Notes under the pieces: generated by a model
Databases searched by the model: none
What the model was told of the DNA's origin: nothing
The model's input: only the letters and a program-made list of their open reading frames with translations
Position numbers and translations under genes: made by a program
Shown here: positions 6,070-34,531 of the stretch, in pieces
How positions within the stretch are numbered: position 1 is the stretch's first letter
Layout of the letters: every line of letters begins with the position of its first letter
Source of the DNA: Antedon mediterranea
Taxonomy: Eukaryota; Animalia; Echinodermata
Assembly: GCF_964355755.1 (NCBI RefSeq)
Contig: NC_092671.1
Location: 7,254,001-7,318,000, forward strand
Length of the DNA stretch: 64,000 bases
Direction: 5' to 3'

Positions 6070-7836
6070 GTAAGTTTGTGGTTACAAGTTTTTATAAGGT
6101 CATCCAAACTCATACAGATCGATGTTTTCCAGATGCGTTGGATGAAGAAAGGAGAAAGGTTAATCGTACGTTAGGCCTACTACTGTTGCTCAAGAAATGG
6201 AAACAAAATCATTTATGACAATTGTTGTTATTAAAGTACACAACAAATTAAATGATTGATGTCAGCTTTCTTTGTGATTGCTCACTCACTTCACTCACAT
6301 TGTCAAACTTTGCATTGTTCGCTCCCTACATAAAATATATTGATAAATATATAATATTTCTGTCCTGTTTTAATCAGTACTGAACATAAATTAAATTTAA
6401 TTAGTCTTCGCCAACACTATTTCTTTTGATTTTCCCTGGTCCATGTTGTTTTTTTTTTTACATAACGTCTTAGATATTAATTTAATTTATTTTTTTTGTC
6501 ATTAATTATATTATATTTATATTATATTTAATTTCTGTTAAAGGAAAGTCTTTAAACAGTGTTTGGTTTCGCTTTTGACAATCCTGGGGAATGTATTTGT
6601 ATGTATTCTATGAGCCGATATTGAATAAATCAAATCAAAATAATGGTTTTGTCAAACAGTTATGGTCGGAAAATGGCAAAATCAACACTGTGATCATGTT
6701 ACAAAGTAATTGTCTAAACAATATAGACTCGACTCCTAACTTAAAAGTAGGAAACCTTTCGCCATTCTTCCCCTAACTTGCAAAGTGAACATTAGGCCTA
6801 TATGACATTAAAATGGCTTATGCAACAAGAAATTATTTCCAGGGGAAAATAAGCCTATTTAAGAATAATATAACTTGTAAACGCAAAATTGAGATCAGAA
6901 AAGAAAAAGAAAGGGTCAGTCATGTTGACGGTTTAGAAGAAATAAAGGCTGAAAACAGACAGAGAAGTTTCGCAGAAGAGGACTTTCCCGGGAACTTTCC
7001 CTCTCAAACTTCATTCACCGATAATGAAATAATGCGTAGGAAGAATAAGCCAACATATATTGTGAAACCAGCAAAGTAGATATTGACCCAATAAAAATAA
7101 ATAAAGATAACCTGAACTTTATTTCGTTTAAAATAACGAAAAAAATACAGTTATACTATCCCGTCACAATTGTGCGAACTTTTATAGGCCTAAACTAAAA
7201 TTACTTCAGTCCTGGTTGGAACAAGTAAATTAGTTATAGGTAAATAATTAATTTTTTTCCCTTTATGAAATTGTTTTTTGTTATCCTTAAAAAAAATATA
7301 GAATTTGTCAACATTCTGTTATGCGCCGGACATTTTTCAAGTTGATAAGTGGTCTTTATATCTGATTTTTTTAAACGGTCGGTTGGTCGATAATTTTGTG
7401 ATATACACAAAACGTAGTTTTTAAAAACATTGAAAATGAACTATCCCTGACACTTTTAAGCGAGCGTGAGAACAAATCGAAATGAAAAAGAGGAGAAATT
7501 ATAATTAATATGTACAGGCCTTAATCAGTGACAGTACGATAGAAATTTGAATTTTTATATTCGGTTCCTGATTTTGATTACCTTTCTTTTGAGTGGCTGG
7601 CTACTCACTGAAACTTCGGAAACAATCCTAATTTTAGCCATACAAATATTATCACTGCTGTTGTGAAAAATTGAATTATTTTATTATATTGAATTTGAAA
7701 AGTTTTTTTTTTATCGAATTCCCAAAATCAATGCGGAAATGCATCAGACCTCACACACATGCTCAGAGTATACGTCATAGCCAACTAACACTATGCAAAT
7801 GAGTTCGTGGCCGACAATGGTTGCAGTGGAATCGTC

Positions 7837-10800
7837 ATGGCCAAAACCTACGATTTTCTGTTTAAATTGCTACTTATAGGTGATTCTGGTGTCGGGAAGA
7901 CTTGTGTATTATTCAGATTTTCAGAAGATGCATTTAATTCAACTTTTATATCAACAATAGGTGAGAAATCGACCCCAATAACTTGCAAATTACTGTTCAT
8001 TAATGGTTATTTCTAGGCCTCGCTTGGAGGCTCTGTTCCAATGTGTTATCCACTACTTCCGCCCTTTTTGCGACTGACTTCGAACATTCCCTTTGAACTG
8101 GTGGTATACCTTGCTTACAATTACATGTACTTAATTTTAAATGGGCGCTAGAAAGATAATTGAATAATGAATATAATAATGATATATTGCCGATTCATTG
8201 TTATTTGGCTCTCTATTCTTATCATGTAAAAACTACACACACGGCATACAAAACAGATAGATAAATAATAATATTAATAATATTATTAATAAATTATAAA
8301 CATCAAGAAAAATTAAGTAGGCCTATGCTGCAGCAGCTAGGTAGACCTACTAATACTAGCTGGGCTTGGTAATAATTATTATGAACTTTTTGATTGACTA
8401 GAATAAGCTTAGTTAAGTGGGGGTGGGGGGGGGGGTGAGAGTGCCTAACAGGTAATACAGTCTGATTTAGTAGTACAATCTTTCTGTTGAAGCATCTATC
8501 CATGCCATGGATGGAATTATTCGTTGGTTTTTAATTTTACTAAAATGATATGTACGCTGTAAGAGAATTATATAATAATAGTAATACAGAGATGAAAAAT
8601 TGAACATTTGTTGACAGTACTACAGTAATTAAAACTCATGTCATTTTGTCTAGTCTGAACTACAGTACTGTACTAACATAACAAAGCTGCACACATAAAA
8701 TACTATTTGTACAGTACTTGCTGCTGTCGGAATTTAGGAAAGACAAAATTCATGAATTTCAATCAGCAATAATACACAAACTTTAAAAGCCCATTAAGAA
8801 TATTAATTGTCACTTTATATTCTGTGAAATGACTTACACATAGCAACAGTTTAATTTCAGCTGCCTATTAATAGCTCAGGTAAGTTGAGTAGTTGATATT
8901 CTTGTGCGACTTTTTATCAACTAGTACAAAACAAAACAGTACCTGTTTTATAACACCCCCATCCCCCCCCCCCCCCAACTCCTACTGCTGAAAAATAATA
9001 CCACCCACTACTAATATAACCCTTTTGAATATTGCCTCCAAGATTTACCCACCATCCACCATATAAATCTTAAGTTGCAAAACCTTACTCAACTTAAGGT
9101 AAATCTGTATAATAAAACCAAAATTTTCTCATAATTTATTCAGTAATTTAGTTTCCATTAGTTTGTATAGCAATTAGTAGATTGAAATGACACTTGCTGG
9201 CCTGCCCTGTTTCTCTTTTAACATCAATCGTTTTTGTGATAATAATATGATGTACTGTACTCCTATACACTTTGTCTGTGTTTCACTTTATTATTATTCA
9301 TTATGATAACATATTAGTTAATTTGAATCTCCAGTGGGATTGCCTTTGGGCATTAATACGTTCCCATGAGCATTTAAAATTACAGTAACTTTAGACCTAA
9401 TTCTGTACTATATCTGTAATATAGTGGAAATTTGAATTACATTTTAAATGTTAGTAATTCTTGTACAAACCTTGAGTGTACCAGCCTACAAACCAACAAA
9501 TGAATTAGCAATGACTAGCTGGACAAAATTACAGGCAGCCTTGACACTTATAATAAAATAAAAAAATACTGAGACTTTGTATAAAATAAATGAACCTGTA
9601 TTTAAAATATGTTTTATTGTCCGTTTTGTCGTAAAGAAAGTGTTTGAGTGATGGAATTACAATTTACTACAGTATTATGTATTTAATGATTGTAAGATAT
9701 AATAATATATTATATTGTACAACAATTATTTTTAACTTAAATATGTAAATAAATAATATATTATTTAAACAATTGTAGTGACAATGGCAATTTAACTTAA
9801 TATGCTGATTCTCTTTTACAGTAATAATCTGTAGTATTCAATATTTATACAGTTTGGTGTATATAACCTACACTTACTGATATTATCAAGGTCACCTGAT
9901 AGAATAAATAACTTTATTATCCAATTTTTGTTGGCTCTTTGTAACTACAGACACTAGTTGTGTGGGTAGGTAAACTATATAGTTGCTATTGCAGTGAGTC
10001 AGTTGAAGTACTTCCCACTCAAATTAGTACAATTCACAATCATATTCAGAAGTTTAAACAAAACTTTATAAATGTAATATTCTTATCTGATTTGTATGTT
10101 TATTTGCAGGAATTGATTTCAAGATTAGAACAATAGAATTAGATGGAAAGAAAATCAAATTACAAATATGGTAGGTTATTTTTTTTAAACCAAAAATGTT
10201 TTTTTATGAAAAACAATGCCGTATTTTATCTTGACGATATGACCCTGGTAAAAATATTAGTTTGATACAGTAAATATGTGAGCAAGATGAAATTTTAAAG
10301 TACTGTATAAAGTTCTTTCTACACTATCAACCTTTATGTGACCAAAAAAATGTGATATGGACATGATGTCAGATCACTACCATATTTGGGCATATCTCTT
10401 ATCATATTTGGGCACTAGTTTGATAGTGTGGACAGAGTTTAAGATTAATTTAATTTATTTAAATTAATATATAGAGCTATCCTTGAATTCCTTAAAACAT
10501 AGAGGAAAAAATAAATGTTTTGAATTGTTTTTCCTCCATGCTTGTAACTGGAAGCTACTATATCGATAATATTTTTTAATTCAATTATAAAATTCAGAAA
10601 TCATAAATAATATTGTACATGTTAGTAGATTAATATAAATGTGGTTATTAAACTGCATGCATTACACTATATTTTAGAGAATTAATAATATTGTTATTGA
10701 ACTGTACCTGTATGAATTACACTGTATGTTGTTGTTTATTAGGGATACAGCAGGCCAGGAACGATTCAGGACTATCACCACAGCTTACTACAGAGGTGCA

Positions 10801-13800
10801 ATGGTACGTAATAATTGCATACTAACTTATGATTGACAGAGGCAGATTCCAGGAGAAATAGAAAGCATTGCCATAACTTATCCATGACAAAATAAACCAC
10901 TTTTACGAAAACCATAAACTAGATAAATATAGGACAGGGGTGCCGCAAACCAAAGTCATAATATTGGCACAGGCTAAGGCCCTTCTCGACCATAATTCTG
11001 GTGGTAGAAGAATTCTTCTCGGATAACAACTCAAAATGGTGGTCCTGGTTACACATATGTCTTGTATGTGATGGATTACCCCTTTTGGTTCAAAATTAAG
11101 CCCCTGTTGATGTTACAGCAGTTGTTTATTCAGCTGCTAATTTAGGTTCACCTTCACCCAATCCCCATATAACTTTCTTTGAGCTGCAATAGAGATTTTC
11201 ACACCACAAACCAAGAATGATTAAATTTCTTTTGTTTCACAGGGTATCATGCTTGTTTACGACATCACAAACATCAAATCCTTTGACAACATCAGAAATT
11301 GGATTAGGAACATTGAGGATGTAAGATCAGTTTTTTTTTTATTACAACATAGACCTGAACATTGTTATGAGCTCTGTTGAAGTGAGATCACTTCCAAAAA
11401 TAATAAATTATAATATGATTGTTATTTATATTAATTGTTAAAAATGTGTATACCGTGCTACATCATCTTTAATTCATCATTAATATTTGGAGGTGTAAAG
11501 TCCAGCTTAAATGTTAGCAGTCATTGTATTGAAAATTTCGTGTTTGTCTACGGATTGAGAATTTCTTTCTTTGTCGGCAGATATTTTAATTATGTAGTAT
11601 TTCATACACCAATTTTATTTTAACCAGTGGGTTGTGGAAAAGTAAATAGAGTGCATTTTATTAATTATACACACAGTAGATGCAGTGAATGATAACTCAA
11701 TTGTATTTTGTTGTTTCTTACAGCATGCATCAGCAGATGTGGAAAAGATGATCTTAGGTAACAAATGTGACATGGATGATAGGAGACAAGTATCAAAAGA
11801 TAGAGGCGAACAGGTAAATGGCTTTTCTATAGGAATCATTTACAGACAAATTCCCAATAAAGCTCTGTCTACACTATCAAACTTTATGAGACAAAAAAAT
11901 GTGATGTGCCCATTTATGGACATAATGATGTCATATCACTACCATATTTGGGCACATCACACTTTTTTTGTCAAACTAGTTTGATAGTGTAGACAGCTTT
12001 AGTAAAAGCTCTCCTTTGAGAAAAGGTGGATTCCAGCTAAATGTTGATGAAAAAGATAGGACATTAAGTTCAGCATTTCCCACCCACCCCAAATGATATT
12101 CGTATTGCTAGCCACATCATATATGTAACAATTAATACAATTTGTTTTTCAAAAGTAAATTCATTTCGTTCGGTTTGATTTATTATTGTAGATAATGATG
12201 ATATAAAACAATCTCCGAACAAAAGGTGAAGAAGGCTATTTGTGATTCCACATTTTTGATTAAAGATTTCTTGAATATAGACAAATAAAGTTTGAAAATA
12301 TTGAATCACAATTGCTTCCCTCAATTTTTTTCCGGAGTTTGTTTTATACTATCATAGTTATATCAAACCTTTTAGTGAACTCTCTTACCTTAGTGATAGT
12401 AATATAAGGAGGCTTTAGCATATTTTTTTTTTTACTTTTGGAGACTCTAGTTTATTGTAGATAAGAATGTGTTACTCTTTTATTTCAGTTGGCCATAGAG
12501 TATGGAATTAAATTCATGGAAACAAGTGCAAAAGCCAGTATCAATGTAGAAGATGTAAGTACTGAAAGATTCACACACTACATTAGCCATGAAAAGCATG
12601 ATTGGTGTAGATTTCAAGATCATATTGTATTATTATAACAAAGTTGGTAGCAAAATCCAATCAGATGCCTCCCATTTAGTCTCTTGTTTGGAGCTCCATA
12701 CTGTCTTTTGGATTAAGGCCGATATTTATTGTTACTTAATTATCATATTCATTTTGTGTGGAAAATCAATAAAAACAAACTGACAGGCGGTAACGGTAAC
12801 GAAAAACTGCATAGCTTGTCCCATGTAGAATCTGTATCTATCCGCCCGACCGCCCCGCACTTCGTGACTAACGGTCATAAGGACTAACATAGATTTCATA
12901 TTTTTATTACCGTTACCGCTCTTCTGTGTAAATCGTCGTCCTTCGTGTGTCAATTCATTTTTAGACAAAATAATGAATTTAGTTTATTTTCTTAACAGGC
13001 TTTCTTCACACTAGCAAGGGATATTAAGGCTAAGATGGACAGGAAGTTGGTAAGTTGCCACCTTACATCCTCTCTTAACACACGGTGTCATATTTACACT
13101 TGTTTCAGTTTCTGTTTTCGAAGAACATACTTATTTCTTGTGTTGGATTACTAGATTGAAATAAAATATTATAAGAATAATGAATGATTATAAGTTGAAT
13201 GGTGAGAGTATGTTGTTGATAGATTGACTGCTCTATTTATTCACCAGAAAAAAAAATAAAGTCAAACAGAAGCCCATTGTCTCTCTGACAAATCAGGGTT
13301 TTAAATTGAACTGTTTTTGTCTTTTTATAAGTGAAATATTATTAATATTTTATTGGTTTTTATTTTTTTTTTCTGTGGAAGTGAATAATTTTATTGAAAC
13401 TACAAAATGGTCCATTAAAAGTTTGATTTGATTCAAGTTTTTCATGTTTCCTGGAACAGTATGTCTTTAAAGATTGTAAGCTTTCTTGATGTGGCGTCCC
13501 TTTTCCACTTATTATATATTTTCTTGCATTATATTAATTATGTTCATTATCGGTTGTATATTTATTATGTTACTCTGTATTTTGCTATATTATTTGTGCA
13601 TTAGGTGTACATCCCCATTAGAACTTTTTGGTCAAAATCCTTATCAGATAAATCAACTAAGCAGGTGATTAATTACCTGAATCCTATTATACCCCTGTGA
13701 TTTTATTAGCTCTCGTGTAATTGATTGATTAGGAAAAGGTACATTCTTCAGTATGCAAGGACAATGGTCAGGCAAAAACTAGCAGAAGTCGGCAATGATC

Positions 13801-14060
13801 AAATAGTTTAACGACCTGCCTATCAAAGTTGGACTTAAATAAACACATGTCACAGTAGGAGGTTAAGTGACATTTACCTGAAGTTTTTCAAAACTTCGGG
13901 TAAAAATGAACACATTCTCTAATGGGGCTGTACACGTAATGTGGAAATAAATGTTATTATTTTTAATTTGTTATAGGATGCAACACAGCCACAAAAGAGC
14001 TTTCCCGATCGACCTAGCGAATCAGGACACAAAACTGGTTGGAGGTGTAGTATTCTGTGA
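7837..14060 (+). CDS. RAB8: Ras-related protein Rab8 (204 aa, 8 coding exons)
   Basis: Exons 7837-7960, 10110-10170, 10743-10803, 11243-11320, 11724-11813, 12489-12554, 12999-13049, 13977-14060, all GT-AG and in frame. Motifs [49 protein letters not shown]-terminal CaaX CSIL. Closely matches recalled Rab8A. Confidence 0.97.
10311..10439. mobile_element. Family-1 MITE (TIR AGCTCTGTCTACACTATCAA; PIF/Harbinger-like)
   Basis: TIRs plus internal ATCACTACCATATTTGGGC units; TAA/TTA flanks. Confidence 0.75.
11861..11998. mobile_element. Family-1 MITE
   Basis: Same TIRs and internal sequence; TAA left, TTA right. Confidence 0.8.
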
Positions 14061-17932: not shown

Positions 17933-19618
17933 CGTATCCGGATATTCACCCCCTGGACATTTACCCCCCGGACAACTACCCCCCGGACAACCACCACCTG
18001 GACCACTACCCCCTTAGGACAACTACCCCTTTAGGACAACTACCCCCCGGACAAATACCCCCCGGACAACTACCCCCTTAGGACAACAACCCCCTTAGGA
18101 CAACTACCCCCTGGACAACTACCCCCCGGACAATTACCCCCTAGGAACAATTACCCCCCGGACAATTACCACCCGGACAATTACCCCCCGGACAATTACC
18201 ACCCAGAAAACTATCCCTTTAGAACACCCTAACCACCCAGACCATTCAACAACCTGACTCTGCAACAGTGTATAATAGGAATTAATAACTATATTTTAAT
18301 TCGTTACTTTGACGAATTACTATTCATTATTGTAAACAAAAGTAAAAGATTGAACATAAATATAGCCTGGTATAAACTGAAGATTGTCACACATGATCAT
18401 AGGATAGTCGAACGTATTATAGTACTCCCTGTATTTACTGTAAATACTGGGTTCGCTAATAATAATAATAATAATTTTTGCGTCAGGACAATGCTTCGAT
18501 AACCACTGGTCTTAAAAGAATTAATTTTTGTCTCAAATTTGTCATATATGTATTTTTGTACACTTGAAGAATAATATCACTTTTGATATTTGACCTCAAT
18601 TTTCACTCACCGAATAAACGTCGATCTTTAAATAAATTCCCCTCAAATAAACGGTGACCATGTCACTCCCATGAAACATCATATGAAATAATCGGCGTCT
18701 ATTTCCATTAGATTCTCCCATTGAATAAACAACTTTCTTCCAATAAATGTCCACCTAAAAACCACCTAAACAATAAACAGCCCAGGCCGTTTTTTCAATA
18801 AATACGGTACTTTAAATCTAGCACATCTAGGGTCTAGCGTGCTGTTAAACAGAATAATCGGTTAAAAACGGGTGTTTCGAAACTAGAGACCCGAGACCAG
18901 AGACCAGAGACCCGAGACCCAATACGAAAAGGGAGACCTAAATATACGAAAAGGGAGACCCACGTACGAAAAGGGAGACCCCACTATACGAAAAGGGAGA
19001 CCCCACTATACGAAAAGGGAGACCCTAATATACGAAAAGGGAGACCTAAATATACGAAAAGGGAGACCCAAATATACAAAATGGGAGACCCAAATATACG
19101 AAAAGGGAGACCCACTATAAGAAAAGGGAGACCCACTATAAGAAAAGGGAGACCCCACTATACGAAAAGAGAGACCACACTATACGAAAAGGGAGACCCT
19201 AATATACGAAAAGGGAGACCCAATAGGTCTCCCTTTTCGTATTGGGTCTCGTTTCAGGTCTCTGGTCTCGGGTCTCTAGTTTCGAAACACCCGTTAAAAA
19301 CAGATGATTTCATTTTTACAGAAACCGGTCCTATATATTTGTCTACTTTTGGATGGGGGGGGGGGGTAGTTGACCGGGGGGGTAGTTGACCGGGGGGTAG
19401 TTACCCGGGGGGTAGTTATCCTAAGGGGGTAGTTGTCCTAAGGGGGTGGTTGTCCGGGGGGTAGTTGTCCGGGGGGTTGTTATCCTAAGGGGGTAGTTGT
19501 CCTAAGGGGGTAGTTGTCCGGGGGGTAGTTGTCCGGGGGGTAGTTGTCCTAAGGGGGTAGTTGTCCGGGTGGTAAACATCCGGGGGGTAACTGTCTAGGG
19601 GGTAGGTGTCCTAGAACC
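17933..19618. mobile_element. Foldback-like non-autonomous DNA transposon with inverted subterminal minisatellites
   Basis: 17-19-bp GGACAACTACCCCC units at ~17940-18240 and their reverse complement at ~19355-19615; exact 8-bp flanking duplication GGATCATC (17925-17932, 19619-19626). Confidence 0.8.
18870..19292. mobile_element. Mutator-like MITE nested in the foldback element, with internal 21-22-bp repeats
   Basis: TIR GGGTGTTTCGAAACTAGAGACCCGAGACCAGAGACC at both ends; 9-bp TSD GTTAAAAAC; TATACGAAAAGGGAGACCC tandem units. Confidence 0.88.
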
Positions 19619-19731
19619 GGATCATCACCTAAAAATAGTCATGACTTTATCTGCGCATGTGCATTAAAAAGCCAACAATAACAACAGCACATGGTGTGTG
19701 TGGCGTTTAGTTTCTTTCCACAAACATTAAA

Positions 19732-22041
19732 ATGGCCAAGAATCCCGTCCCAAAATCTTATGATTTTCTTTTTAAATGTGTGGTTATTGGAGACTATGGT
19801 GTTGGGAAGACTTCAATAGTAATGAGGTTTACAGATGATACTTTTGATACGTTTCCAGCTACTATAGGTAAGAGAGTAGACTAGCCTCTAGTAGGGCCTA
19901 GCTAGTTTTAGGCCTAGAACTAGGTTTAAAAAGTAGTTTAGGCCTAATAAATGAAGAAAACACACCCACCACCCTTTTCCACAGAAGTCTACTCTGGATA
20001 GAGTGGGCCTATCCTCTCGTTTAGAGGTGTAGGGCCAGGTTGAGAAGACCAGAAGGAACCTCAAACTTTCAAATATGACTATACTACTAGCATGAGGCCT
20101 CTCAACACCCCACATAATAATTAATACTTACTGTTCTGTGTTAGTGTTAAATAACGTTGCGCATTAACATTTTTACTTTATGCAGGAGTTGATTTCAAGC
20201 TTAGGACAATAGAACTAGATGGAAAGAAAATCAAATTACAAATTTGGTAAGTTAGTAGGCTTTTTGGTATGGGACTACAATCAGTGATTTGATATAAAAG
20301 GGTTTATTTTTTATCAAAAGACGTCTTCCTCCTCCCATAATAAAATTGTAGTCTAATTTGGATTCAAGATCGATTCAATTTTTCTGCTTTTTAGGGATTT
20401 ACGAATGTCTGGAACCCGCTGCAAGAGTGTTTCAAATGTTTATTACAGAGGTACAGGGGTAATTTAAATTCATTTATTTGCTAAATGCTCTGTTTATTTT
20501 AGGGATACACCTGCAGGAGAAAGAAGAAGAGTTTATGTTCTTCCCTCACATTACAGAGGAACAACGGTAATTGAATAAAATGCTATTTTAAAATATCCAT
20601 ATTCGTGACTGAGCTGTTTTGAGCAAATAATCACCAGCTAGCTCCTCAAACTCCTAATAATAAATTCAATTCAGTTTTCAATGTAGTATGTTTTATGTTT
20701 GAAAAAAATTTTATCTGGTTACGATTTAGTAATAGGAGTGTTTTTGCACTAAACATGCTATTATTTCAGGGTATTATGGTTGTATATGATATCACAAATA
20801 AAGAATCTTTTGAGAACTGTCAAGTATGGCTGAATGACATCAAAGAGGTAATTTTATCTAGGTATTACTATAATTTATTTAAATAAAATGTTGATATGAT
20901 ATTGACATGCCACTAGGGTGGAACACGTTCTAATATTAAGATATATTATGCTTACTTACTTAGAAAGCATCACCAGATGTGGAAATAATTCTTTTAGGAT
21001 CTAAATGTGATGAAGATGATGAAAAAAGACAAGTTTCCCAAGAACAGGGACAACAGGTAGGCTGTGTATTAAAAACTGTTGTAAACAAATAAATATACTA
21101 TGCATTCAAGATAAATGTTTTGCACAGCGTGTCATGATTCTAGCCCCCAAAAACACTTAAATTATAAAGCTCCGTCTACACTATCAAACTAGTTTGACAA
21201 AAAAGTGTGATGTGCCCAAATATGGTAGTGATATTACATCATCATGTCCATATATGGGCACATCACATTTTTTTGTTACATAAAGTTTTATAGTGTAGAC
21301 AGAGCTTTTGATTGGGCGGTGGTTTTAAAGGCCATTGCAATATACAATCTAAAACCTTTCTAAAATTTCATATTCCTAGCTCTTTCTTTTGAAGTGATGA
21401 TGAGAAGAAGTTTTTAATATGATACAGTAACACGTTTATATTTTCTTTTTCAGTTGGCCACAGAGTATGGAATTAAATTCATGGAAACAAGTGCAAAAGA
21501 GGCTATCAATATAGAAATGGTAAGGATTGATATCAATAAATGTTGAATGATGATGTTACATTAAAAACATTTACAGCATTGTGAGCAACATATCTAGAAT
21601 TATTTTAGTAAAACAATTTTTTGTCTGCATTTTATTTAGTTTGAATGTGGAATTCTATACAAACTTTTATGATTTTTATGTTGATGGAAGTCTGTGTTCT
21701 CATAAAGCAGAAAATAAGCCTAGTTCTGTATCAATAATAATAAAATAATGTTATAATCCAGGAAAACATTAACAGTTTCTTTATATAATCATCTCTGTTT
21801 TTGTTTATTCAAAAGGCTTTTTTTACACTGACAGAAGATGTACTAGCAAAGAAAAGTATTGAATTGGTAAAGTTGCTTTACAGTTCATTAAGTAAAACAA
21901 TATATCAATTATCATAATTATTCAAACCTTTGTATGATGACTCGTTTTAATTGATAGATATTTTTACTTATATTGTAGACAGAAGAACCATTGGAGAAAA
22001 AGAAAGAAAAATCAAGAAAATCAGGCTGTTGTGTCCTTTGA
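19732..22041 (+). CDS. Divergent Rab8-like paralog 2 with duplicated exon 3
   Basis: Exons 19732-19867, 20186-20246, [20395-20458 or 20503-20566], 20770-20847, 20964-21056, 21454-21519, 21816-21866, 21979-22041. Same intron phases as Rab8. Motifs [19 protein letters not shown]-terminus GCCVL. Intact ORF. Confidence 0.92.
20395..20458 (+). CDS. Paralog-2 exon 3a (switch II variant: [22 protein letters not shown])
   Basis: TTTTTAG acceptor, GTAATT donor, 64 nt, phase 2 to 0, retains WD...YYRG. Confidence 0.7.
20503..20566 (+). CDS. Paralog-2 exon 3b (switch II variant: [22 protein letters not shown])
   Basis: TTTTAG acceptor, GTAATT donor, 64 nt, phase 2 to 0. Confidence 0.8.
21168..21306. 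mobile_element. Family-1 MITE (reverse orientation)
   Basis: Same TIRs and internal units. Confidence 0.8.
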
Positions 22042-23315
22042 AGATCAGTATCACATATTAAACAGAAGGGAGCATTTTCTTGTCAAACCAATGAGGAGCA
22101 ATATTTGTTAACACTACAGCTAACCCCTATTCATGATATGGGGTATTAGGGGGACAATTCCTGTGAAACAAACAAGCATTAGTATATGTTGTCACACTAC
22201 TGCCTACACTACCCCCTATTAAAGTGATAATTTGTTGAGTTCTGGAGGTGATCTCTTAATATACTGTATGTTCTACTGTATATTCCATTCAGGATTGTGT
22301 GATTTCCTAAACTCTTAATTTTGTTTTTGACAGCAGGAGTTTTTTTTTTCGTCCTTTCTTTGTAAATTTATATTGTTTTAAGAAAATATCTGTTTTCATT
22401 TAATAGTAACATTTTATATTGTAAAGTATACAGTGTGTAAAACTATAGTATATAATATCTATTTTTAATACATAGCCAATATTGTGCACAAATAAATATT
22501 AGTGTAGTTTTTTAGAGGGTAAAATCTTTGTATGGTACAGTATATTGTAACCAGTTGAAGGTGCTTTGCAAGTCTTACTTAAGTAATGGTGAGTCTTAAT
22601 ACTGTGACTGAAGAAGGATACGAACCAAGAACAAATGGCTCTGAGATTGGTAACCAATTAGTACAGGGAAAAAAATACAATTCTGTTACTGATATTTTTA
22701 TTTGAATTTGAAAATCTGAAAAGATATGCATCATCAAGAACAATAAATTCAAGTATGTTATGAAAAAATAAATGTAAATATTAAAAGAATAATTTTAAAC
22801 CTATTTATCTTTTACCAATAACACCAAGAAAGAGTGAATTCATTCTTCCCTGATTGAAACTATACCAAATAAATTATTTGTATATAATAATGTAAATAAT
22901 GAGAAAATGGAGATAGTGCGCATAGTGTCCGTCTAGATTGTTGAACAAATACAAGAGTATGATCACGTTTTAAGTCGCCCCATAAATCTAGATTTGTTTG
23001 TCATTTTGTTTTTTTAATTTTGCGCTTGGGACTATTCCATTTTGTACTGTAGGGATTGTCTTCCTTAAATGTAGTAAATGATTCACGACACTTTATTACT
23101 ATTTTTTATTCTGATCCTACAATAATTTATGAAAGATGATAATGTTTTAAAATTGCATAATGGGAAGTATCACTGCGTTCTTGAAGAAAAAAATAAAAAC
23201 AATATTTCCGTAATAATTTCCTAAAATATCGATGACTTTTATTTGCGCATGGGCGATGAGATGTTTTTTGTTCGCGTGTGTAATTGTTTTTAGTTTCTCT
23301 GTCTCGCTGTATCAA

Positions 23316-25899
23316 ATGGCCACCAAAAAGTACAATTTTCTTTTAAAGTTCGTTATAATAGGAGATAGTCGTGTTGGGAAGAGTTCATTACTGTTGAGAT
23401 TTGTAGATGATACTTTCGACCCGTCGTTTATATGCACAATAGGTAAGAAAAACATGGTTAAAGTAGCTAGGCCTAGCTGAGTGAATCCTCTTCCTTGGGC
23501 AGACGATGCACGTTTCGTATACTGTACAGTAATATAATTAGGTTGACTCAAATCCATGGCGCGCCACCAAGGACAAATCTTAATCGAGTTATTTTATAGT
23601 TTATTTTATAAATGTTGAAATATGTTCTAAACAATGTACTGGTATTCCAGTTTACAATTGGAAGGAAAAGGATGTCTTTTGTTTAAAGAAACGATTTACA
23701 AATTAATGATAAAAGTAAGTACGAGTATTACGATTCTTAATCTTATACAGGTGTAGGTGTTTTTTTACAATAATATATATTGTAATTTTAAGAGGAAATG
23801 GTAATTACAAATACATACCTTGTTTAAAGATGAAATACACACGAAAAATGAATAATATATATATATTTAAATTAAATAAATTATTGTTTTTCTAGGAATT
23901 GATTTCAAGGTTAGGACAATTGAAATAGATGGAAAAAAAGTTAAATTACAAATTTGGTAAGTATGTCAAGTTTTATTGTAAGAATGTAATTTTGCAACAA
24001 TTTTATTTTAAGTAGTTTTTTTACAACAAATTTTTACTATTTTTTTTATATTATTATCTCATGTAAGTTGCAGGTTTCCTGTTAAGTGGGATTTTGTAAA
24101 AGTGAACAAAAATGTTTTAAAAGTTACTATTACAATATGTATAAATGAGAATGAAATAAAACGTTTGATCACAACACTAAAGGAGAAAATGTTACCTCCG
24201 AAGATGCTAAATTAAGTTCTTATGTTTATATTTAGGGATATACCTGGTTCTGAAAGAATAATGTGTCTTATGCCGTCATATTACAGAGGATCAAAGGTAA
24301 TTTCACAGAGTATCAATTTATTGTTTGTCTTTATTATTATTTACGTGTTGACATAATAATTCTTACTATAAACTGTTATTCTTTCAGGGTATTATAGTTG
24401 TATATGACATTACCAACATCAAATCTTTTGAAAACAGTCGAGTATGGCTAGATAATGTTAAAGAGGTGTGTAGATGTAAACGTGTAATATTTAAACTTTA
24501 ATTTGTAAAGATATAATGTATCCAACGATGTAGGTCCTGGTTGAGGTGAGGGAATTAATTAGGTGTCAATTGTTCTTCTTCGCTTTTAGACGGCAAACAG
24601 CTAACATTTGATAATTATTTTTTTTACATTTTCGATTCTCGATTGCAACGTCACCTCTATTTTCTTACGATTCGTTTTTTAATTTGTATTTTGTAGAAAG
24701 CATCAGAAGATGTTGAGTTAATGCTCTTAGGAAACAAATGTGATGAGGAAGATAAACAAGTTTCAGAAGAAGATGGGCAACAAGTAATTAATAACTTACT
24801 AAAACCATTCAGAAAAACAATTGTCGTATTCTAATGGAAACTTTTGTTGAATACTTTTTATATTCGAATTGTAAATTTGTGCTCAACAGAACGTCATTCG
24901 AATAGAAAACGTTGACAACGCAAGCTTTTTCGTTAAGAAGAATCTCAAAGCTCAAAATACTCTCTGAGTACTGTACTCAACGGAAAAAACTGTACTCAAT
25001 GGTAAAAGTCCCACTCGAATACAAAAAATACAATGATGATGGTCCTTAGTTTGGTTCCTTGATTATGGACCACTGTCTAATCAAAGTGAATAACAAAAAA
25101 TGATTTGGATTTAACTTCTTTTTTTAAAGAAAAACATCAATATCTTATAATCACAATAATATACAGTTGAGTAATGATTTTTAAAAAAAATGAATTGTAA
25201 AGCTCCTTCTACACTATCAAAATAGTGACAAAAAAAATGTAATTTGTGACATCACCGTGTCTATTATATTATATTGCTGCATCTCATTTTTTGTCACATA
25301 AAGCCTTTGAAAATATTTGTTTCTTCATTTTCAGTTGGCTGCAGAATATGGAATGAAGTTCATGGAAACAAGTGCAAAGGAAGCTATTAATGTAGAAAAG
25401 GTAAGCCAAGATAAAAGTGATATCTAAGAGAAAATAATGAATAGTCTCTTTCTTTATACAGTAATACTGTATATTCTGTTATTTTCTTTAAGGCATTTAT
25501 CACACTTGCAGAAGATGTATTTGCCAAAATGAGCATGGAATTGGTAAGGATTTTTACAAATAAAAATTATCTTCAAATCAAAATAAGATTTAATTAAGTC
25601 ATAATATTAAGAAAAAAACCTGTTTTTTTAATATACATTCTAAATTGAAATTGTTTATGATCTTGGGTTTTTAAATATTTATATATATATTTATATTTGT
25701 ATTTTATTGTTAACTGTATTTGATGTTGTATTGTTTTATGTTTCAAACCTGTTAGTAGCGGTAATTATCACTGTTGGTTTTGATTGAATAAAATAAAAAT
25801 AAAATAAGATTTTCAATTAGACGTTTTTATTTACAGCAGGAGGCATCACCAGAAAAGAGCACAGAAAAAACAAGAAAATCAGGCTGTTTTGTTCTTTGA
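23316..25899 (+). CDS. Divergent Rab8-like paralog 3
   Basis: Exons 23316-23442, 23896-23956, 24236-24296, 24388-24465, 24697-24783, 25335-25400, 25493-25543, 25837-25899 (CAGCAG tandem acceptor on the last). Motifs [27 protein letters not shown]-terminal CFVL. Intact ORF. Confidence 0.93.
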
Positions 25900-27308: not shown

Positions 27309-28838
27309 ATGAATCGACTTTTCATTGCATTTGCATATTTCCTGTTTGGAGCAGCAGTCGTAATGTCGGAAGGTTAGAACACTTAAAAATAATAACTGTC
27401 CAAAGAGATTGTACTGTACTATATCAAAGTAGATTGACACCGAAAATTAAAAGTCCCAATACCGTACAAATAGCCTACTATTAGATTTATATCCTATAGT
27501 CTTTTCAATACCTTTCCGAAACTCAGATGTTTCGTTTGGGTGCTTTGTTTAGCTTCAATGCACCATACGTTAAAAAATTTTTAAATGGTGTTTAATCATT
27601 TTAGACCCCTGTAATAGTTGTGGAGATGACCAAATTTGTGACGTATCCGACGACGGTAGCTTCACTTGTATAACACCAGGTAATTACAGTAGAACCTTCG
27701 TTTTGTATTATAATAAATACAGTACATCATAGTTTTCTAGAATTCAACAACCACCGCTATAGGGCTAAACATAGAGATCTTATAGTTCACTACAATATCT
27801 CTATGGTCCAACCGATACTTAGTATTTCGACTAAACAAAATGCACCGTCCATAAATTGAATTCGCACTATAGCTTCTTTGTGAATATTTCTATTGAGAAG
27901 AAAAATATGTTTTTAATTAACTGCTCTTTTTTCTTATTAGAACCTAACCTCGAAGTGTATCAAGGTAAGAATTCATCATGATTTAATTATTGAATTAATA
28001 AATCAGTTGGCGTATTTTGAGGTAACCTTCGTGTATATCGAGCACTCTACCCAGTTGATCTGAATTTATTATATATACATTGCATTGTTGACACACTGAA
28101 AGTTTTATTTTCTTGCATTGAAACCATTGATGCATAAATTATGATTACATAAACAATGTCAAATAATAGTAAGTATACCGTCTGATGATAACAGTGAAGT
28201 ACTGTATATTATTGTCTAAATATATTTTATAATACTGGAGATACAGTACCGAGAAAAATCAAATAATCTTCAGCAGCAAATCATCCTGGAAGTCACTTCG
28301 GTACGTTTAAAAAATAACCTGTAAGGAAAATATTGTGTATTATTTTTCTGTTATCAAAATTCAGGCCTATCAGTAATAGTACAGTTATGTTTTCCTTTCA
28401 GAACATGTTATGCGTAAGTATTACACCTCACTTCAAATAACATACATTCACCGATAACGTCAATAAACTATGATAATTACTGGGAACAGTGTGACGTAAC
28501 CTCAAACATATATGTTTTTTATGTCATACAGGATTTTACTAAATAATGATACGGTAACTTGTGACAAAATATTACTGACAATATAAATAGTGAAAATGAA
28601 AATGGCGTAAACTTGTTTCTAATACCTGCAAATCGCCAAGATAAAACAAATATTGACAGGCCCTATATTAATAGTCTAATTCTAAATTACTTGATGATAT
28701 TTCGTTCGATATTAATTTTTATAAAGGATATCATTTTCCAGAATTAACTTGTTTATTTATTTTTGTATTTCTTTGATAGCTCCTAATGACGCGTTCTTTC
28801 TTACCAACTTGGATATGCCTATGTGGCAGTATGAATGA
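27309..28838 (+). CDS. Secreted micro-exon peptide gene A1 (77 aa, unknown family)
   Basis: Exons 27309-27372, 27605-27679, 27941-27964, 28402-28413, 28780-28838; UTR-exon donor at 27054. Protein MNRLFIAFAYFLFGAAVVMSE-DPCNSCGDDQICDVSDDGSFTCITP-EPNLEVYQ-EHVM-PPNDAFFLTNLDMPMWQYE. Signal-peptide-like N-terminus; all introns phase 1. Confidence 0.8.
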
Positions 28839-30144
28839 GAACATACATTTGATACACAGAGACTTAAGAATAAGCATACAACATCATTTTCTGGCATATA
28901 AACATTTTATTGGAAAAATGAACATTCTAAACGTGTAAACTGCATGTGATTCAATTCCTGCTTTTCTTTTCAAAGTCTTGAATACGTGGCCTCCTTAAAT
29001 TGCCTATCTATTTAGGACATTTAAGTAGATAGAAACACATTTAAATAAATAATACTGCAAATTAGTTTGTGTTGGTGTTTGTTAAGTTTGTCACTGAGTT
29101 TAAAAGCAAGGTGTGTCAAAATAAAGACTTATCGACCACAGGACATCCATGATTTCGATTCAGAATGTTCTGGAAGTCGTACATTTCGGAAATCTTAGTT
29201 TTTTGCAAAGACGCTCAATTACCACCGGTGCAATCACAATAAAATAGAGAAAAGAAGATTATTTTCACTGAATGAATACCAGAGATTTACATTTAATCTG
29301 TAGCATTTATCCATATTTTTTATAGAAAAATTAACTTATTTCTCTATGTCTTTAATTATGGAGGTTTCATTATTATAGCTTATTGAATTTCAGTTGCAAT
29401 TTTACAAAAATAACAAACTAGTAAATCCTAAGATTGTAAATATATCCATTAAAAACTTGATGAATTGACTTTAATTTTGACCATTGTCGTCACACCAAAG
29501 GTGTCATCACAGTAAACCCAACATTTTGATGACTGATTAATTTTATTAAATATAACCATAATGTTATGTAATAATTATTTAGGCCTAGTAACTACTACAA
29601 CGAAAACTTTCATAATAAACGTGGCGTTATAGTTAAAATTAGCAAATAATTAAATTTTATAAAAATTATCTATTCATTTTGAACATAAACATATGTTTCA
29701 TTGTTTATGTATAATTAAATTTATGCAACGAAAAATTGTATGAACGTGCGAGTTTTACATCTACGGTTCGAGTACCAGTATCGTTATTTGAACTGCAGGT
29801 AACTTGAATTTTACTTTATATTAGTCCAATGAAAGGTGGTCTATTTTCCCTGATATCAGCAATATATCGTTAAGTAGTTCACATTTGATAACAAATATTG
29901 TACTATTTATACATTTTAGTGCAAGTTTATACTTGTTATTTTATATTATAAACATACGGTACTTTGATTTCCCAAATTTTAATTGCATTAAAAAAATCTC
30001 TGCTGCATGCTTTCTTAGACATATTTTGGCTATGTGATGTATATATATTTGGTGTATATATATTTGGTGTAGAGAAAGGGTTTGTGAAAACAAATTAGAA
30101 ATGTTTATTCATTTCTGTTTTACTTCAACAGAAACTTTTCCAAG

Positions 30145-31257
30145 ATGAATCGATTTTTTATTGTATTAACATCCCTTTTCATATATGGAGCAGTCAAAGT
30201 CGTAATGTCAAGAGGTATGAAAACGTATTGGCCTAACCAAACGGTCTACAAGCACTCAGCTAAATCTATTGCATAAATTTCAATATTAAAGTACCATTTT
30301 AGACTTTGCAATATATATTTTCTGAAGTTTTTCTGTTCTTTGGGGTGGTTTCCAAAAATGACATATAAGGCTTACACTGGCACCATATTTCACTTATTGC
30401 CATATTACTTTAAATAAGATGATGTTGTTGTTTCTGTTTCAGATGACACTTGTCTCGCGTCCAGTGACAGCCACACTTGTGCGGCAGGTAATGATTTTAT
30501 TTCTAGAATAAAATTTGATTAAGATTGTAGTTTTGATTGAAATTGAAATTATAAGTCTAAGTTATCGTAAATAAACTTTTTTAAATATATAAAATACAGG
30601 TTTCTTAGTTTTTATTTGTTGTTTATTAACATCATTGTCATATAGACATTTTTGTTACAACTCATTGACAAGAAAAATGAAAAATACGTTCTTTCTTTCT
30701 CAATAGAAACTGGCCTTAACGGGTTTGCGTATATCTGTACAGATGGTAATTCGTGTCCACACTACGAAGGTAAGAATTTCTTATTGGGAAAATTTGAGGT
30801 GGGAAACACAAAAATAGCGGTTATGGTCAATGTAAGTTTGTCTGCTTTCTCGAGCCACATGTCTAATAATGAAAAAAAAAAGAAAAGGTTCAGTTAAAAC
30901 GTAATTAGGGGCCTAAGCGAACTTAAATAAAACAGGAAGCACCACTTTTAGTTAATTCAGTATTTTCCTTGATCAGCACAGCGCGTGTAAGACACTCTAT
31001 AAGCAAAAGAAATGTGCACATTCTTAATAGGCATACATTCTATTCTTCTTTCAGAACGATACTTCATTCGTAAGTATCAAAGCTCAATTAAAACTGTCAC
31101 AACAAACAGAAATTATGCATGCAGTCACATTATTAACAATTTATAAGTGAACATTTTTAGGAACTATAAGGCCTAATTTAAAATTATCGAAATTTCTTTC
31201 ACAGCTCCCGGTGACCGTTACTTCCCTCAATTTATTCTTGGAAAGGAAAATAAATAA
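30145..31257 (+). CDS. Secreted micro-exon peptide gene B1 (81 aa)
   Basis: Exons 30145-30214, 30443-30487, 30707-30769, 31055-31069, 31205-31257. Protein MNRFFIVLTSLFIYGAVKVVMSR-DDTCLASSDSHTCAA-ETGLNGFAYICTDGNSCPHYE-ERYFI-PPGDRYFPQFILGKENK. Splice sites conserved in copy B2. Confidence 0.85.
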
Positions 31258-31494
31258 GAACACTCTTTTATCTGAGAACATTATATTTAAATATAAAGCT
31301 AGAAAAGTATACTGTATGGAGACATTAGGCCTACAACAAGCTTAAAGAGAAATTAAACTGTAGAATATTACTTATTTGTATTATGATCTTTAGATAACAA
31401 TTCATTCATTTATAAAGGAATACTGAAAACTCTATTATCATAGAAAACTATGAGGTTTCAAACTTCGTGTGAAATTGGCTCTAATAACCACTAA

Positions 31495-31652
31495 AGCTCT
31501 GTTTACACTATCAAGCTTGATGTGACAAAAGAAATGTGATGTACCCATATATGGACATGATGATGTCTTATCACTACCATATTTGGGTATCACTACCATA
31601 TTTGGGCATATCACACTTTTTTGTCAACTAGTTTGATAATGTAGACAGAGCT
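31495..31652. mobile_element. Family-1 MITE (also carried in the duplicated copies at 33124-33274 and 38799-38951)
   Basis: Same TIRs; same position downstream of each B-type last exon. Confidence 0.85.
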
Positions 31653-32267
31653 ATCAGTCTTTATTCTAAAGTTCCAGTAGTTGTCACTGTGACATTTTCT
31701 AATGCATTTTTTATTCCATTCGTGTTGTGTTGAACGTGATTAAAATTGAATAATTTACAATATGTAACCTTTAGATAGACAATACTTATTTAAATGTATA
31801 ATTATAATCCTATAATTGTTGACATTAAACTGTTGGTTCAAACAATTAATTAACCTTTAAATGTCTTTGTTGCTTAATTAGCACTTCGTAAAATAATTGC
31901 AAAACATGCCACATCATTGTGCCGTTAACCTTTTAAATGCTAATGTGTCATGATAAACCACACCATAACATTTTATTTAAGGTGTTCAAAAACTATCGGT
32001 CCGTATTCCTACGCTTGGAGAATTTATTTTCAAACTGTTTGTATAAATTATGCACGTTACACTATCGAAATTCTTTTAGGTGCTATTAGAAACAGAAACA
32101 AACTAGTAAAGCCGTATAGTTTATTCACCAAAGAAGAACCATATTTTTTAATAGCACCAGTGCGGTGATTATATATAAAGGCCTACCATAACATTGGAAA
32201 GAATAGATTTACCTAAATTGAAGTTCCATATACAGTATGCCGTGACTCATTCATTCATAAACATTAT

Positions 32268-32868
32268 CGGGTTTGCATATATATGTACAGATGGTAATTC
32301 GTGTCAACATAACGAAGGTAAGAATTTCTTATTGGTCTCTAGGTTAGCAGTTTCTTGAGAAATTTGGAAAATTGGAGGTTGGAAACACAAAAATAGCGGT
32401 TATGATCAATGTAAGTTTGTCCGCTTTTTCGAGGCACTACTAATTAAGCGTTTCGTCGAAGAAATGTTCTTTCAAAAAAGAGAAAATTCAGTTAAACGTA
32501 ATTAGGGGCCTAAGCGAACTTAAATAACAGGAACCACCACTTTTAGTTAATTCGGGATTTTCTCTGATCAGCACAGCGCGTGCACAAGACACTCTTGCAT
32601 TTGTATTCTTGTGTTATTCTTAATAGGCCTACATTTTATTCTTCTTTCAGAACGATACTTCATTCGTAAGTATCAAACCTCAATTAAAACTGTCACAACA
32701 AACATAAATTATACATGCAGTCACATTATTAATAATTTATAAGTGAATATTGTTAGGAACTATAGGGCCTAAAATAAAATTATCGAAATTTCTTTCACAG
32801 CTCCCGGTGACCGTTTCTTTCCTATTTTTCTAGATGCTCAATTTATTCTTGGAAAGGAAAATAAATGA
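32268..32868 (+). other. Duplicated 3' module of gene B1 (5'-truncated 63-nt exon, 15-nt micro-exon 32651-32665, last exon 32801-32868); alternative 3' end or gene fragment
   Basis: ~30720-32266 is repeated at ~32268-33880; micro-exon and terminal exon (PPGDRFFPIFLDAQFILGKENK*) keep intact splice sites. Confidence 0.75.
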
Positions 32869-34377
32869 GACCACTGCACTCTTTTATCTGAGATAACATA
32901 ATATTTAAATACAAATATAGAAAAGTATACTGTATGGAGACATTAGGCCTACAACAAGCTTAAAGAGATATTAAACTGTTGAATATCACGTGGCCTTATA
33001 TAGTTTGAATTATGATCTTTAGATAACAATTCATTCATTCATAAAGAAATACTGGAAACTATATTGTCATTGGAAACTTTGAGGTTTCAAACTCCATATG
33101 AAATTGGCTCAAATAGCCATTGAAGCGCTGTTTACTATCAAACTTGATGTGACAAAAAGAATGTACCCATATATGGACATGATGATGTCATATCACTACC
33201 ATATTTGGGTATCACTGCCATATTTGGGCATATCACACTTTTTTTGTCAACTAGTTTGATAGTGTAGACAGCGTTTTAGCCTTTATTCTAATGTTCCATT
33301 AGTGGTCACTGTAACATTTTCTAATGCATTTTTGTTTCCATTCGTGTTGTGTTGAACGTGATCAAAATTGAATAATTTACAATTTTTAACCTTTAGCAGA
33401 CAATACTTATTTAAATGTATTGTAATTATAATCATAAATAATATAATAATAAAAGTATTGGCATCAAACTGTTGGTTCAAAGTAATTAATTAACCTTTAA
33501 ATGTCTTTGTTTCCTAATTAGCACTTCGTAAAATAATTGTAAAACATGACACATCATTGTCTCGTTAACCTTTTAGATGCTAATGTGACTTAATAAACCA
33601 CACCTACGCTGGAAGAATTTATTTTCAAACTGTTTGTATAAATTAATTATGCACGTTACACTATCGAAATTCTTTCAGGTGCTTTTTGAAACAGAAACAA
33701 ACTAGTAAAGCCGCGTAGTTTATTCTTCACCAACTGAGAACCATATCGAACATATTTTGTAATAGCACCAGTGCAGTATTATATAAAAATGAATAGGCCT
33801 ACCATAACATTGGAAAGAATGGATTTTAAATTGAAATTTCATATACAGTATGCCGTGACTCATTCATTCATAAACATTTATTTTTATTAATGGTGCATAG
33901 AAAATAACAATAACAAATTATTAAATAAAGAAGAAATACCATCAATAGAGGATTTTACAAGAAGTAAAACTTGTCACGTAAAACCCTTGGACAAAAAAAA
34001 AATGTGACATCATATAATAAACGGCAAAGCATTGAATTTAAATTTGTTTAAATGATTCATTCGCTTTGAATATATTAACATTGGTTATCATAATGTAATA
34101 ATAATATGCATTTTATAGTGCAACAAAAATGCATATAAAACGTAGCAGCGGTGCTTGCAACTTATTCAAGTGGCGTCTCAGTTGGTATCGACATACTGTT
34201 CTTTTTTGGAAGCAGGTATGTATTTTCCTTTCTTTTACTCGGGAATTACAGTATAGGCCTACTAACTTTCTCTGTTCTTAACTTAAACCATGTTCTCCAC
34301 TGGACGCAAAGCAGGATGTAACGCCATTGACCAATCGTAAGTGACATTTCGATGATCATCGTGTCTGTCTTGGTAAG

Positions 34378-34531
34378 CTTGGTTCCCATTAGGATGCAAC
34401 GCAAGGACGTAGACGCAACGTAAGTGAGTTGACCAATCACAAGCGATGAATTATAAACTGTCGCTTGTCTTTGGTCAACACGCTTGCTTTGCGTTTACGT
34501 CCTTACGTTGCGTCCTAGTGGGAACCAAGCT
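34378..34531. mobile_element. Family-2 MITE (TIR AGCTTGGTTCCCA(C/T)TAG); related pieces at ~34535-34640, ~40085-40280 and 57888-58085
   Basis: Inverted termini and GCAACGCAAGGACGTA internal repeats recur in the window. Confidence 0.7.

What the first reader, a model, noticed from the sequence alone, without database searches (positions are those of the whole stretch)
20395..20566. Tandem, mutually exclusive switch-II exons in a Rab GTPase
Seen: two 64-nt exon-3 homologues, each with an AG acceptor and GTAATT donor, 44 nt apart. Both are phase 2 to 0, so including both frameshifts, and the spacer is far shorter than the other introns here. They encode very different G3/switch-II segments ([19 protein letters not shown] and [19 protein letters not shown] versus canonical [18 protein letters not shown]). 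Known: switch II sets GTP hydrolysis and effector/GAP/GDI binding; mutually exclusive switch-II exons are known for RAB6A/A' but differ there by only a few residues. Inference: splicing swaps the whole effector-recognition surface.
Basis: partly seen in the sequence, partly recalled or inferred. Interest (0 to 1): 0.8.

Follow-up and report, generated by a model that had tools for sequence, protein, structure and literature searches.

The report
Feather-star Rab8 offshoot swaps switch II
A feather star carries an extra, altered copy of the membrane-traffic gene Rab8 with two very different versions of one exon, each found spliced alone in RNA, which likely gives two proteins with different partner-binding faces and a predicted weak on/off cycle.

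Summary
Both 64-nt exons, their splice sites, the 44-nt spacer and the frameshifts check out. Contigs of one RNA-type run show all four joints (e2-3a, 3a-e4, e2-3b, 3b-e4) at similar depth, with no 3a-3b or skip joint. Public gene models of Antedon mediterranea list both proteins. Both isoforms lose DxxGQ and carry S17Y, N121S and a shortened switch I. The scaffold is under purifying selection (dN/dS about 0.2); exon 3 runs at 1 or above, not significantly above 1. The isoforms differ at 14 of 21 residues; RAB6A/A' differ at 3. Only switch II is swapped, not the whole effector surface. Best reading: steric exclusion plus NMD yields two atypical Rab8-like proteins with different partner faces; the main rival is relaxed drift. 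No orthologue was found (weak searches), so conservation is untested. The scan noted similar GTPase switch-exon pairs in other genomes. New variant of a known kind.

The parts
19732..19867 (+). Gene 2 (divergent Rab8 copy) exon 1: P-loop GDYGVGKT (S17Y) and switch I, one residue shorter than Rab8
   Evidence: e1-e2 join seen as a 15-nt loose end in X1
20186..20246 (+). Exon 2 (interswitch, to W66); 92% DNA identity to Rab8 exon 2, likely gene conversion
20395..20458 (+). Exon 3a, 64 nt, [21 protein letters not shown]; no DxxG, keeps R69 and Y77 with conservative changes at 71-74
20459..20502 (+). 44-nt spacer; branch-point-like CTAAA with its A about 26 nt from the 3a donor; TGCTAAAT also stands before gene 3 exon 3
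   Evidence: branch point predicted, not mapped
20503..20566 (+). Exon 3b, 64 nt, [22 protein letters not shown]77 to His; closest to gene 3 exon 3 (45 of 61 nt)
20770..20847 (+). Exon 4
20964..21056 (+). Exon 5: G4 motif reads SKCD (N121S)
21454..21519 (+). Exon 6: G5 ETSAK intact; near-identical to Rab8 exon 6 at silent sites (pS 0.05), likely conversion
21816..21866 (+). Exon 7
21979..22041 (+). Exon 8: basic tail and CCVL prenylation-type end, stop
7837..14060 (+). Gene 1: canonical Rab8 (204 aa, single 61-nt exon 3 at 10743-10803), the likely parent
   Evidence: 97% identical to Anneissia Rab8
23316..25899 (+). Gene 3: sister divergent Rab8 copy with one 61-nt exon 3 (24236-24296, [20 protein letters not shown])
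24089..24143 (+). Possible decayed remnant of exon 3a in gene 3 intron 2 (no AG acceptor, indels)
   Evidence: p 0.007-0.015 against shuffles; not recovered by the MAFFT alignment; tentative

Best explanation
A tandem duplicate of Rab8 in a feather star splices in either exon 3a or exon 3b, likely because the 44-nt spacer is too short to be removed and any double or skipped product would be destroyed by NMD, and the two 203-aa products are likely membrane-anchored, poorly cycling Rab8-like proteins that differ in which partners their switch II face binds. Shown: exon structure, each exon spliced alone, tandem array, motif changes, purifying selection on the scaffold and fast change in exon 3. 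Inferred: (1) steric block (predicted branch A about 26 nt from the 3a donor, under the 50-nt limit used by Hatje et al.); (2) prenylation at CCVL; (3) weak or uncoupled GTP binding and hydrolysis from loss of DxxGQ, N121S and S17Y; (4) 3a keeps a Rab8-like alpha2 face (R69, K71, S72, V73, S74, Y77) and may still bind or compete for some Rab8 partners, while 3b has the gene-3-type face (Pro in alpha2, Y77H) and would bind others or none; (5) the pair is about as old as the gene 2 / gene 3 split, and gene 3 probably let its 3a copy decay while gene 2 kept both.
For: All four bridging joints and no joining or skip joint in X1. Both proteins are in public gene models, letter for letter. Outside exon 3 (exons 1, 2, 4-7), gene 2 against gene 3: pN 0.149, pS 0.495, dN/dS about 0.21 (p = 6e-12), so the gene is not a pseudogene. 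Exon 3 has a much higher pN (0.59 for 3a/3b, 0.33 for 3b/gene 3) at background or lower pS (Fisher against the rest p = 3e-10 and 0.005). A neutrally evolving 64-nt exon keeps frame and both splice sites in 0.9-12% of simulations at 0.375 changes per site, and 0.03-3% at 0.75. A candidate decayed 3a in gene 3. Both exons are intact in the DNA contigs of X3 and X5, with one silent change in 3b. S17, T64, A65, G66, Q67, E68 and N121 are invariant in 58 of 58 Rab8 rows, yet most are changed here. MXE-variable residues tend to be surface-exposed and near functional sites (PMC7954323 passages).
Against: pN is not significantly above pS in exon 3 (p = 0.20 and 0.37), so drift fits as well as diversifying selection. 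An exon included in half the transcripts would be kept in frame even if its residues did not matter. No orthologue in any other species was found, though these searches are weak: one search missed even gene 3. Only one RNA run, as contigs, with no tissue or allele information. No protein-level evidence. Loss of the switch II Gln does not predict the nucleotide state of a Rab (PMC3919270 passages). The 3a remnant in gene 3 was spotted by eye, and 7 other tiles of 458 score as high (one of them holds Rab8 exon 3). Coding differences in the runs are not all silent: three silent, one T147I seen in a loose end, one unlisted difference in exon 4, and a 9-nt deletion in the tail.
Confidence: 0.55

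Rival explanations
1. Relaxed constraint. Switch II no longer matters in this paralogue; the exon is needed only as an in-frame linker ending in YYRG. The duplicate persists because steric exclusion makes it harmless, and the two isoforms do the same job.
For: Core identity of 3a and 3b is at chance level, 11 of 42 nt; dN/dS of exon 3 is not different from 1. Gene 3 manages with one exon. G3 and G4 are already degraded in both isoforms.
Against: Both splice-site pairs survive over dS about 0.75 between the exons, although loss of one acceptor would be neutral under this view and may have happened in gene 3. 3a keeps conservative residues along the alpha2 face.
Confidence: 0.3
2. Arms-race decoy. 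The paralogue is bait or a competitor for microbial proteins that target Rab8, and the two exons are kept by diversifying selection to cover two attackers.
For: Change is concentrated in switch II with dN/dS 1.5-1.7 as point estimates. Rab8 is bound by bacterial effectors through the F45/W62/Y77 triad (bioRxiv 2024.06.28.601186 passages; structure titles).
Against: dN/dS is not significantly above 1. No excess of amino-acid polymorphism seen in 3a or 3b in the runs laid. No crinoid pathogen or expression data.
Confidence: 0.08
3. 3a is a throttle: it yields an unstable or inert protein (no DxxG) and so halves the output of the 3b form.
For: 3a is furthest from the G3 consensus. A public model (X4) uses a second donor inside 3a at 20451 that shifts the frame.
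Against: 3a keeps frame, length, YYRG and Y77; a throttle needs none of these.
Confidence: 0.04
4. The near 1:1 ratio is allelic: each haplotype uses one exon.
For: 175.5 against 168.6 is what a heterozygote would give; contig assembly can collapse heterozygous sites.
Against: Both exons have intact splice sites in the DNA haplotypes seen. The shared downstream contig carries one allele (21002C) at the summed depth.
Confidence: 0.03

Closest known systems
RAB6A / RAB6A' (human)
   Same: A Rab gene giving two equally abundant splice isoforms (PMC3578815 passage); listed among conserved spliced repeats (bioRxiv 2023.04.29.538821 passage). That the duplicated exon lies at G3/switch II is recalled; the original paper was not held.
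   Different: Three residues differ in RAB6A/A', against 14 of 21 here. Both RAB6 forms are canonical GTPases (recalled); here neither exon has DxxGQ and the host is a lineage-restricted paralogue.
RAB37 tandem-exon substitution and homologous MXEs in general
   Same: Duplicated exons change a surface patch thought to alter partners (PMC8373072 section 17; PMC7954323 passages); exclusion by a donor-to-branch distance under 50 nt and by frameshift/NMD (PMC5740500 passages).
   Different: Those events are mostly ancient and conserved; this one is young enough for unsaturated silent sites and evolves at dN/dS of 1 or above.
Rab8 and its metazoan offshoots (Rab10, Rab3, Rab26, Rab27, RabX4 and others)
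   Same: Rab8 has duplicated repeatedly in animals (PMC3425129 passages). Best structure matches are Rab8A. Exon layout matches the neighbouring Rab8.
   Different: Genes 2 and 3 form their own long-branch clade (100/99) with 25 shared changes; no other fetched protein has more than 9 of them. G1, G3 and G4 are altered.
RefSeq models XP_071942107.1 (X2) and XP_071942108.1 (X3), Antedon mediterranea
   Same: Identical to the 3a and 3b products.
   Different: Automatic names only ('Rab-8A-like'); the gene 3 product is named isoform X1 alongside them. I found no paper on the locus.

Membership tests
Homologous mutually exclusive exons (Hatje et al. 2017 criteria) | Each exon joined to both flanks, bridging the other | tested here: met
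   Four joints in X1 contigs; criteria from PMC5740500 passages
Homologous mutually exclusive exons (Hatje et al. 2017 criteria) | No exon-to-exon joining read (or only frameshifting ones) | tested here: met
   None listed (contigs drop rare forms); double inclusion frameshifts anyway
Homologous mutually exclusive exons (Hatje et al. 2017 criteria) | Same length, phase and homology | tested here: met
   64 nt each, phase 2 to 0; 29 of 64 nt, p = 0.00045
Homologous mutually exclusive exons (Hatje et al. 2017 criteria) | Steric mechanism: donor to branch point under 50 nt | tested here: met
   The whole spacer is 44 nt; branch point predicted only
Homologous mutually exclusive exons (Hatje et al. 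2017 criteria) | Regulated or conserved use of both exons | not testable with these tools
   One RNA run; no other crinoid genome could be searched; orthologue searches inconclusive
Canonical Rab8 GTPase | G1 GxxxxGK(S/T), G2 Thr, G5 ETSAK | tested here: met
   Present, but S17 (58 of 58 Rab8 rows) is Tyr and switch I is one residue short. Motif names recalled.
Canonical Rab8 GTPase | G3 DxxGQ | tested here: not met
   3a DLRMSG, 3b DTPAGE; one extra residue in both; no Gln
Canonical Rab8 GTPase | G4 NKxD | tested here: not met
   SKCD; N121 is invariant in 58 of 58 rows; Rab8 N121I is counted among nucleotide-binding-impaired mutants (PMC4905258 passage)
Canonical Rab8 GTPase | Hydrophobic triad F45, W62, Y77 | tested here: inconclusive
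   Complete in 3a; Y77 is His in 3b (triad)
Canonical Rab8 GTPase | C-terminal prenylation cysteines | tested here: met
   Ends CCVL after a basic stretch; prenylation itself not tested
Canonical Rab8 GTPase | Binds and hydrolyses GTP, cycles through GEF, GAP and GDI | not testable with these tools
   Needs biochemistry; predicted models were too poor to judge
RAB6A/A'-type pair | Two near-identical isoforms (three residues) | tested here: not met
   14 of 21 residues differ against three

The most novel reading that the evidence does not exclude
A Rab8-derived pseudo-GTPase whose switch II is under diversifying selection uses mutually exclusive splicing as a two-setting recognition cassette: one face still mimics Rab8 and titrates its regulators or attackers, the other is new. 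It would be a decoy Rab with a splice-swapped bait surface.
Probability: 0.15. Interest if true: 0.8.

Novelty: new variant of a known kind. Interest (0 to 1): 0.5.

Why it matters
Rab switch II is close to invariant across animals (most positions 57-58 of 58 Rab8 rows). Here one gene expresses two versions that share 7 of 21 residues on an otherwise identical, selected scaffold. That is a ready-made pair for asking how much of Rab partner choice and nucleotide cycling is set by switch II alone, and how new Rab identities arise after duplication. With the scan's unverified notes on octopus Ras, annelid RagC/D and arthropod dynamin, it suggests that duplication of switch exons in GTPases recurs in invertebrates. 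If the drift rival is right, it is a local curiosity of one feather star.

Tried and rejected
No whole genome is held for the window, so genome-wide intron sizes and further paralogues could not be checked. The run search listed no holder on record as RNA; X1 is RNA by guess, supported by its joints. The first read-laying was swamped by a repeat at 21157-21316 and hid most rows; the second, narrower one gave the joints. X1 has no cover over exon 1; a hole proves nothing. Structure prediction: mean pLDDT 63.9 (3a) and 68.2 (3b), residues 1-47 mostly under 50, block 71-80 at 57 and 59; fold matches to Rab8A have rmsd near 9 (only the 3b model was searched). These say nothing about isoform differences. 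Docking/selector RNA pairing: 9 of 10 region pairs were unremarkable; spacer with intron 3 reached 1 of 60 shuffles, not convincing over ten tests; no strong inverted repeat flanks the exons. Orthologue searches found only this locus; sensitivity is low. The protein tree groups genes 2 and 3 but cannot place them among Rab8s (long branches); a crinoid origin rests on tandem position, unsaturated dS (0.8-1.1) and I93 shared by gene 3 and crinoid Rab8 (1 of 58 rows). The idea that 3b was imported from gene 3 (pS 0.22 against 0.50) is not significant (p = 0.10). A polymorphism count giving zero amino-acid changes against about 8 expected used a truncated list and missed T147I and one unlisted exon 4 change, so I do not rely on its p value. 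A processed-copy or assembly artefact is rejected: the DNA runs hold both exons in one contig. No complex prediction was run. Supplements were not read.

Full report
1. The observation. The gene runs 19732-22041 on the + strand in eight coding exons. Exon 3a (20395-20458) and exon 3b (20503-20566) are both 64 nt, with an AG acceptor and a GTAATT donor, 44 nt apart. Either alone gives an open 203-aa protein. Both, neither, or spacer retention give early stops. The other 21 intervals listed for the three Rab8-like genes are 91-2149 nt. The exons share 29 of 64 nt (p = 0.00045), 14 of 18 in the tail and 11 of 42 in the core, and 7 of 21 residues.

2. Both exons are used. Five runs hold the stretch; I laid four, then two on a narrower stretch. 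In X1, which is RNA by the tool's guess and has no intron cover over 19660-21140, two 119-nt contigs form a clean bubble: e2-3a-e4 at depth 175.5 and e2-3b-e4 at 168.6, all joints GT..AG. The shared flanks are 328.9 and 363.8. No 3a-3b or skip joint is listed. DNA run X3 spans everything in one contig. This meets the validation rules of Hatje et al. (PMC5740500, passages) in one run, with the caveat that contigs drop rare forms and measure levels poorly. Separately, public models of Antedon mediterranea hold both proteins letter for letter as isoforms X2 and X3; X4 uses a second donor inside 3a and shifts frame. I could not see what data support those models.

3. The window holds three Rab8-like genes in tandem: a canonical Rab8 (7837-14060, 97% identical to Anneissia japonica Rab8), this gene (gene 2), and gene 3 (23316-25899). 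Genes 2 and 3 are sisters (100/99) and share 25 changes from Rab8; of 271 stored proteins, none outside this locus has more than 9. Rab8 and gene 3 have a single 61-nt exon 3. 3b is closest to gene 3's exon (45 of 61 nt); 3a is about equally far from all (34-35 of 61). Gene 3's intron 2 holds a possible decayed 3a at 24089-24143 (p 0.007-0.015 over four scoring schemes; 3b, Rab8 exon 3 and gene 3 exon 3 do not match; 7 other tiles of 458 score as high). MAFFT did not recover it, so it is tentative.

4. The protein. Against 58 Rab8 rows (chosen by me from 120 listed hits), gene 2 changes S17 to Tyr, I38 to Pro, S39 to Ala and N121 to Ser, all invariant there, and lacks one switch I residue. Neither exon has DxxGQ; both add one residue. 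G2 Thr, G5 and a CCVL end remain. 3a keeps R69 and Y77, with K71, S72, V73 and S74 as conservative changes; 3b puts Pro in alpha2 and His at 77. F45, W62 and Y77 form the effector-binding triad (bioRxiv 2024.06.28.601186, passages). N121I impairs nucleotide binding (PMC4905258, passage), but N121S is milder and untested. Loss of the switch II Gln has Rab-specific effects (PMC3919270, passages), so I predict 'poorly cycling' and not a fixed state. G-motif names are from my own knowledge. Predicted structures were low in confidence and uninformative.

5. Selection. Outside exon 3 (exons 1, 2, 4-7), gene 2 against gene 3 gives dN 0.166 and dS 0.808. Exon 3 gives dN/dS about 1.5 (3a/3b) and 1.7 (3b/gene 3); pN is far above the rest of the gene (p = 3e-10 and 0.005) but not significantly above pS (p = 0.20 and 0.37). 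Simulated neutral exons rarely stay intact (0.9-12% at 0.375 changes per site), but half-included exons are kept in frame for other reasons too. Among the runs, introns vary freely (23 listed differences), while coding differences seen were three silent, T147I (the Rab8 residue, in a loose end), one unlisted in exon 4 and a 9-nt tail deletion; the list was cut. None altered a residue of 3a or 3b.

6. Mechanism. Exclusion is likely steric: the entire spacer is under the 50-nt donor-to-branch limit, with a CTAAA candidate about 26 nt from the donor whose context TGCTAAAT recurs before gene 3's exon; frameshift and NMD would back it up. No convincing docking-selector pairing was found. The products are likely two prenylated atypical Rab8-like proteins that differ only in switch II and so in partner choice (0.55). 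Rivals: relaxed drift (0.3), arms-race decoy (0.08), throttle (0.04), allelic use (0.03).

7. Comparison and novelty. RAB6A/A' differ in three residues (PMC3578815, passage; the original paper was not held, and the exon's position is recalled). RAB37 has an old tandem-exon substitution forming a surface patch (PMC8373072, section 17). MXE residues tend to lie on functional surfaces (PMC7954323, passages). Rab8 has duplicated often in animals (PMC3425129, passages). Searches for a paper on switch II exon swaps in Rabs, on crinoid Rabs, or on this locus returned nothing on it (open-licence library only; listings seen). The scan's own notes report similar switch-exon pairs in octopus Ras, Owenia RagC/D and arthropod dynamin (unchecked; note e1-8591127 gave me the lead to PMC8373072); none concerns this locus. 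No orthologue was found, with weak sensitivity.

8. Verdict. A real, RNA-supported mutually exclusive exon pair with an unusually large difference, in a selected but non-canonical Rab8 paralogue. It is a new variant of a known kind. Interest 0.5; it would rise if the exons prove conserved or regulated and fall if they drift.

Noticed in passing
window 5910-6070 (+): An alternative first coding exon of the canonical Rab8, carrying its own P-loop and switch I. It differs by one residue from Anneissia japonica isoform X1 and has a clear homologue in the sea star Patiria miniata isoform X1, so it looks conserved across echinoderm classes. Not checked in RNA here. Possibly more interesting than the finding itself.
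   Followed up: partly
window 20186-20246 and 21454-21519 against 10110-10170 and 12489-12554: Exons 2 and 6 of gene 2 are much closer to Rab8 at silent sites (pS 0.25 and 0.05) than exons 1, 4, 5 and 7 (0.55-0.85), and X1 carries the Rab8 residue at 147: likely gene conversion from the parent.
   Followed up: partly
window 22042-23316: X1 cover continues from gene 2's 3' UTR to at least 22700; a 1783-nt contig starting at 22417 has the depth (312) of the contig carrying gene 3's exon 2, and its length fits a spliced gene 3. Public models name gene 2 and gene 3 products as isoforms X1-X4. Possible read-through or overlapping UTRs; a contig does not prove a single transcript.
   Followed up: partly
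window 21157-21316: A palindromic, MITE-like repeat in intron 5 with many copies in the window (for example 11853-12001, 38796-38955, 54846-55002) and very high depth in all runs.
   Followed up: no
window 18850-19620: Upstream of gene 2: an element with inverted ends (18853-18940 and 19224-19309) around a short tandem array, followed by a G-rich tandem array.
   Followed up: no
window 28367-41085: A several-kilobase segmental duplication in two to three copies at 81-89% identity; content not examined.
   Followed up: no
window 23316-25899: Gene 3 is itself an atypical Rab8 copy: P-loop GDSRVGKS, G3 DIPGS with no Gln, intact NKCD, single-Cys end CFVL.
   Followed up: partly
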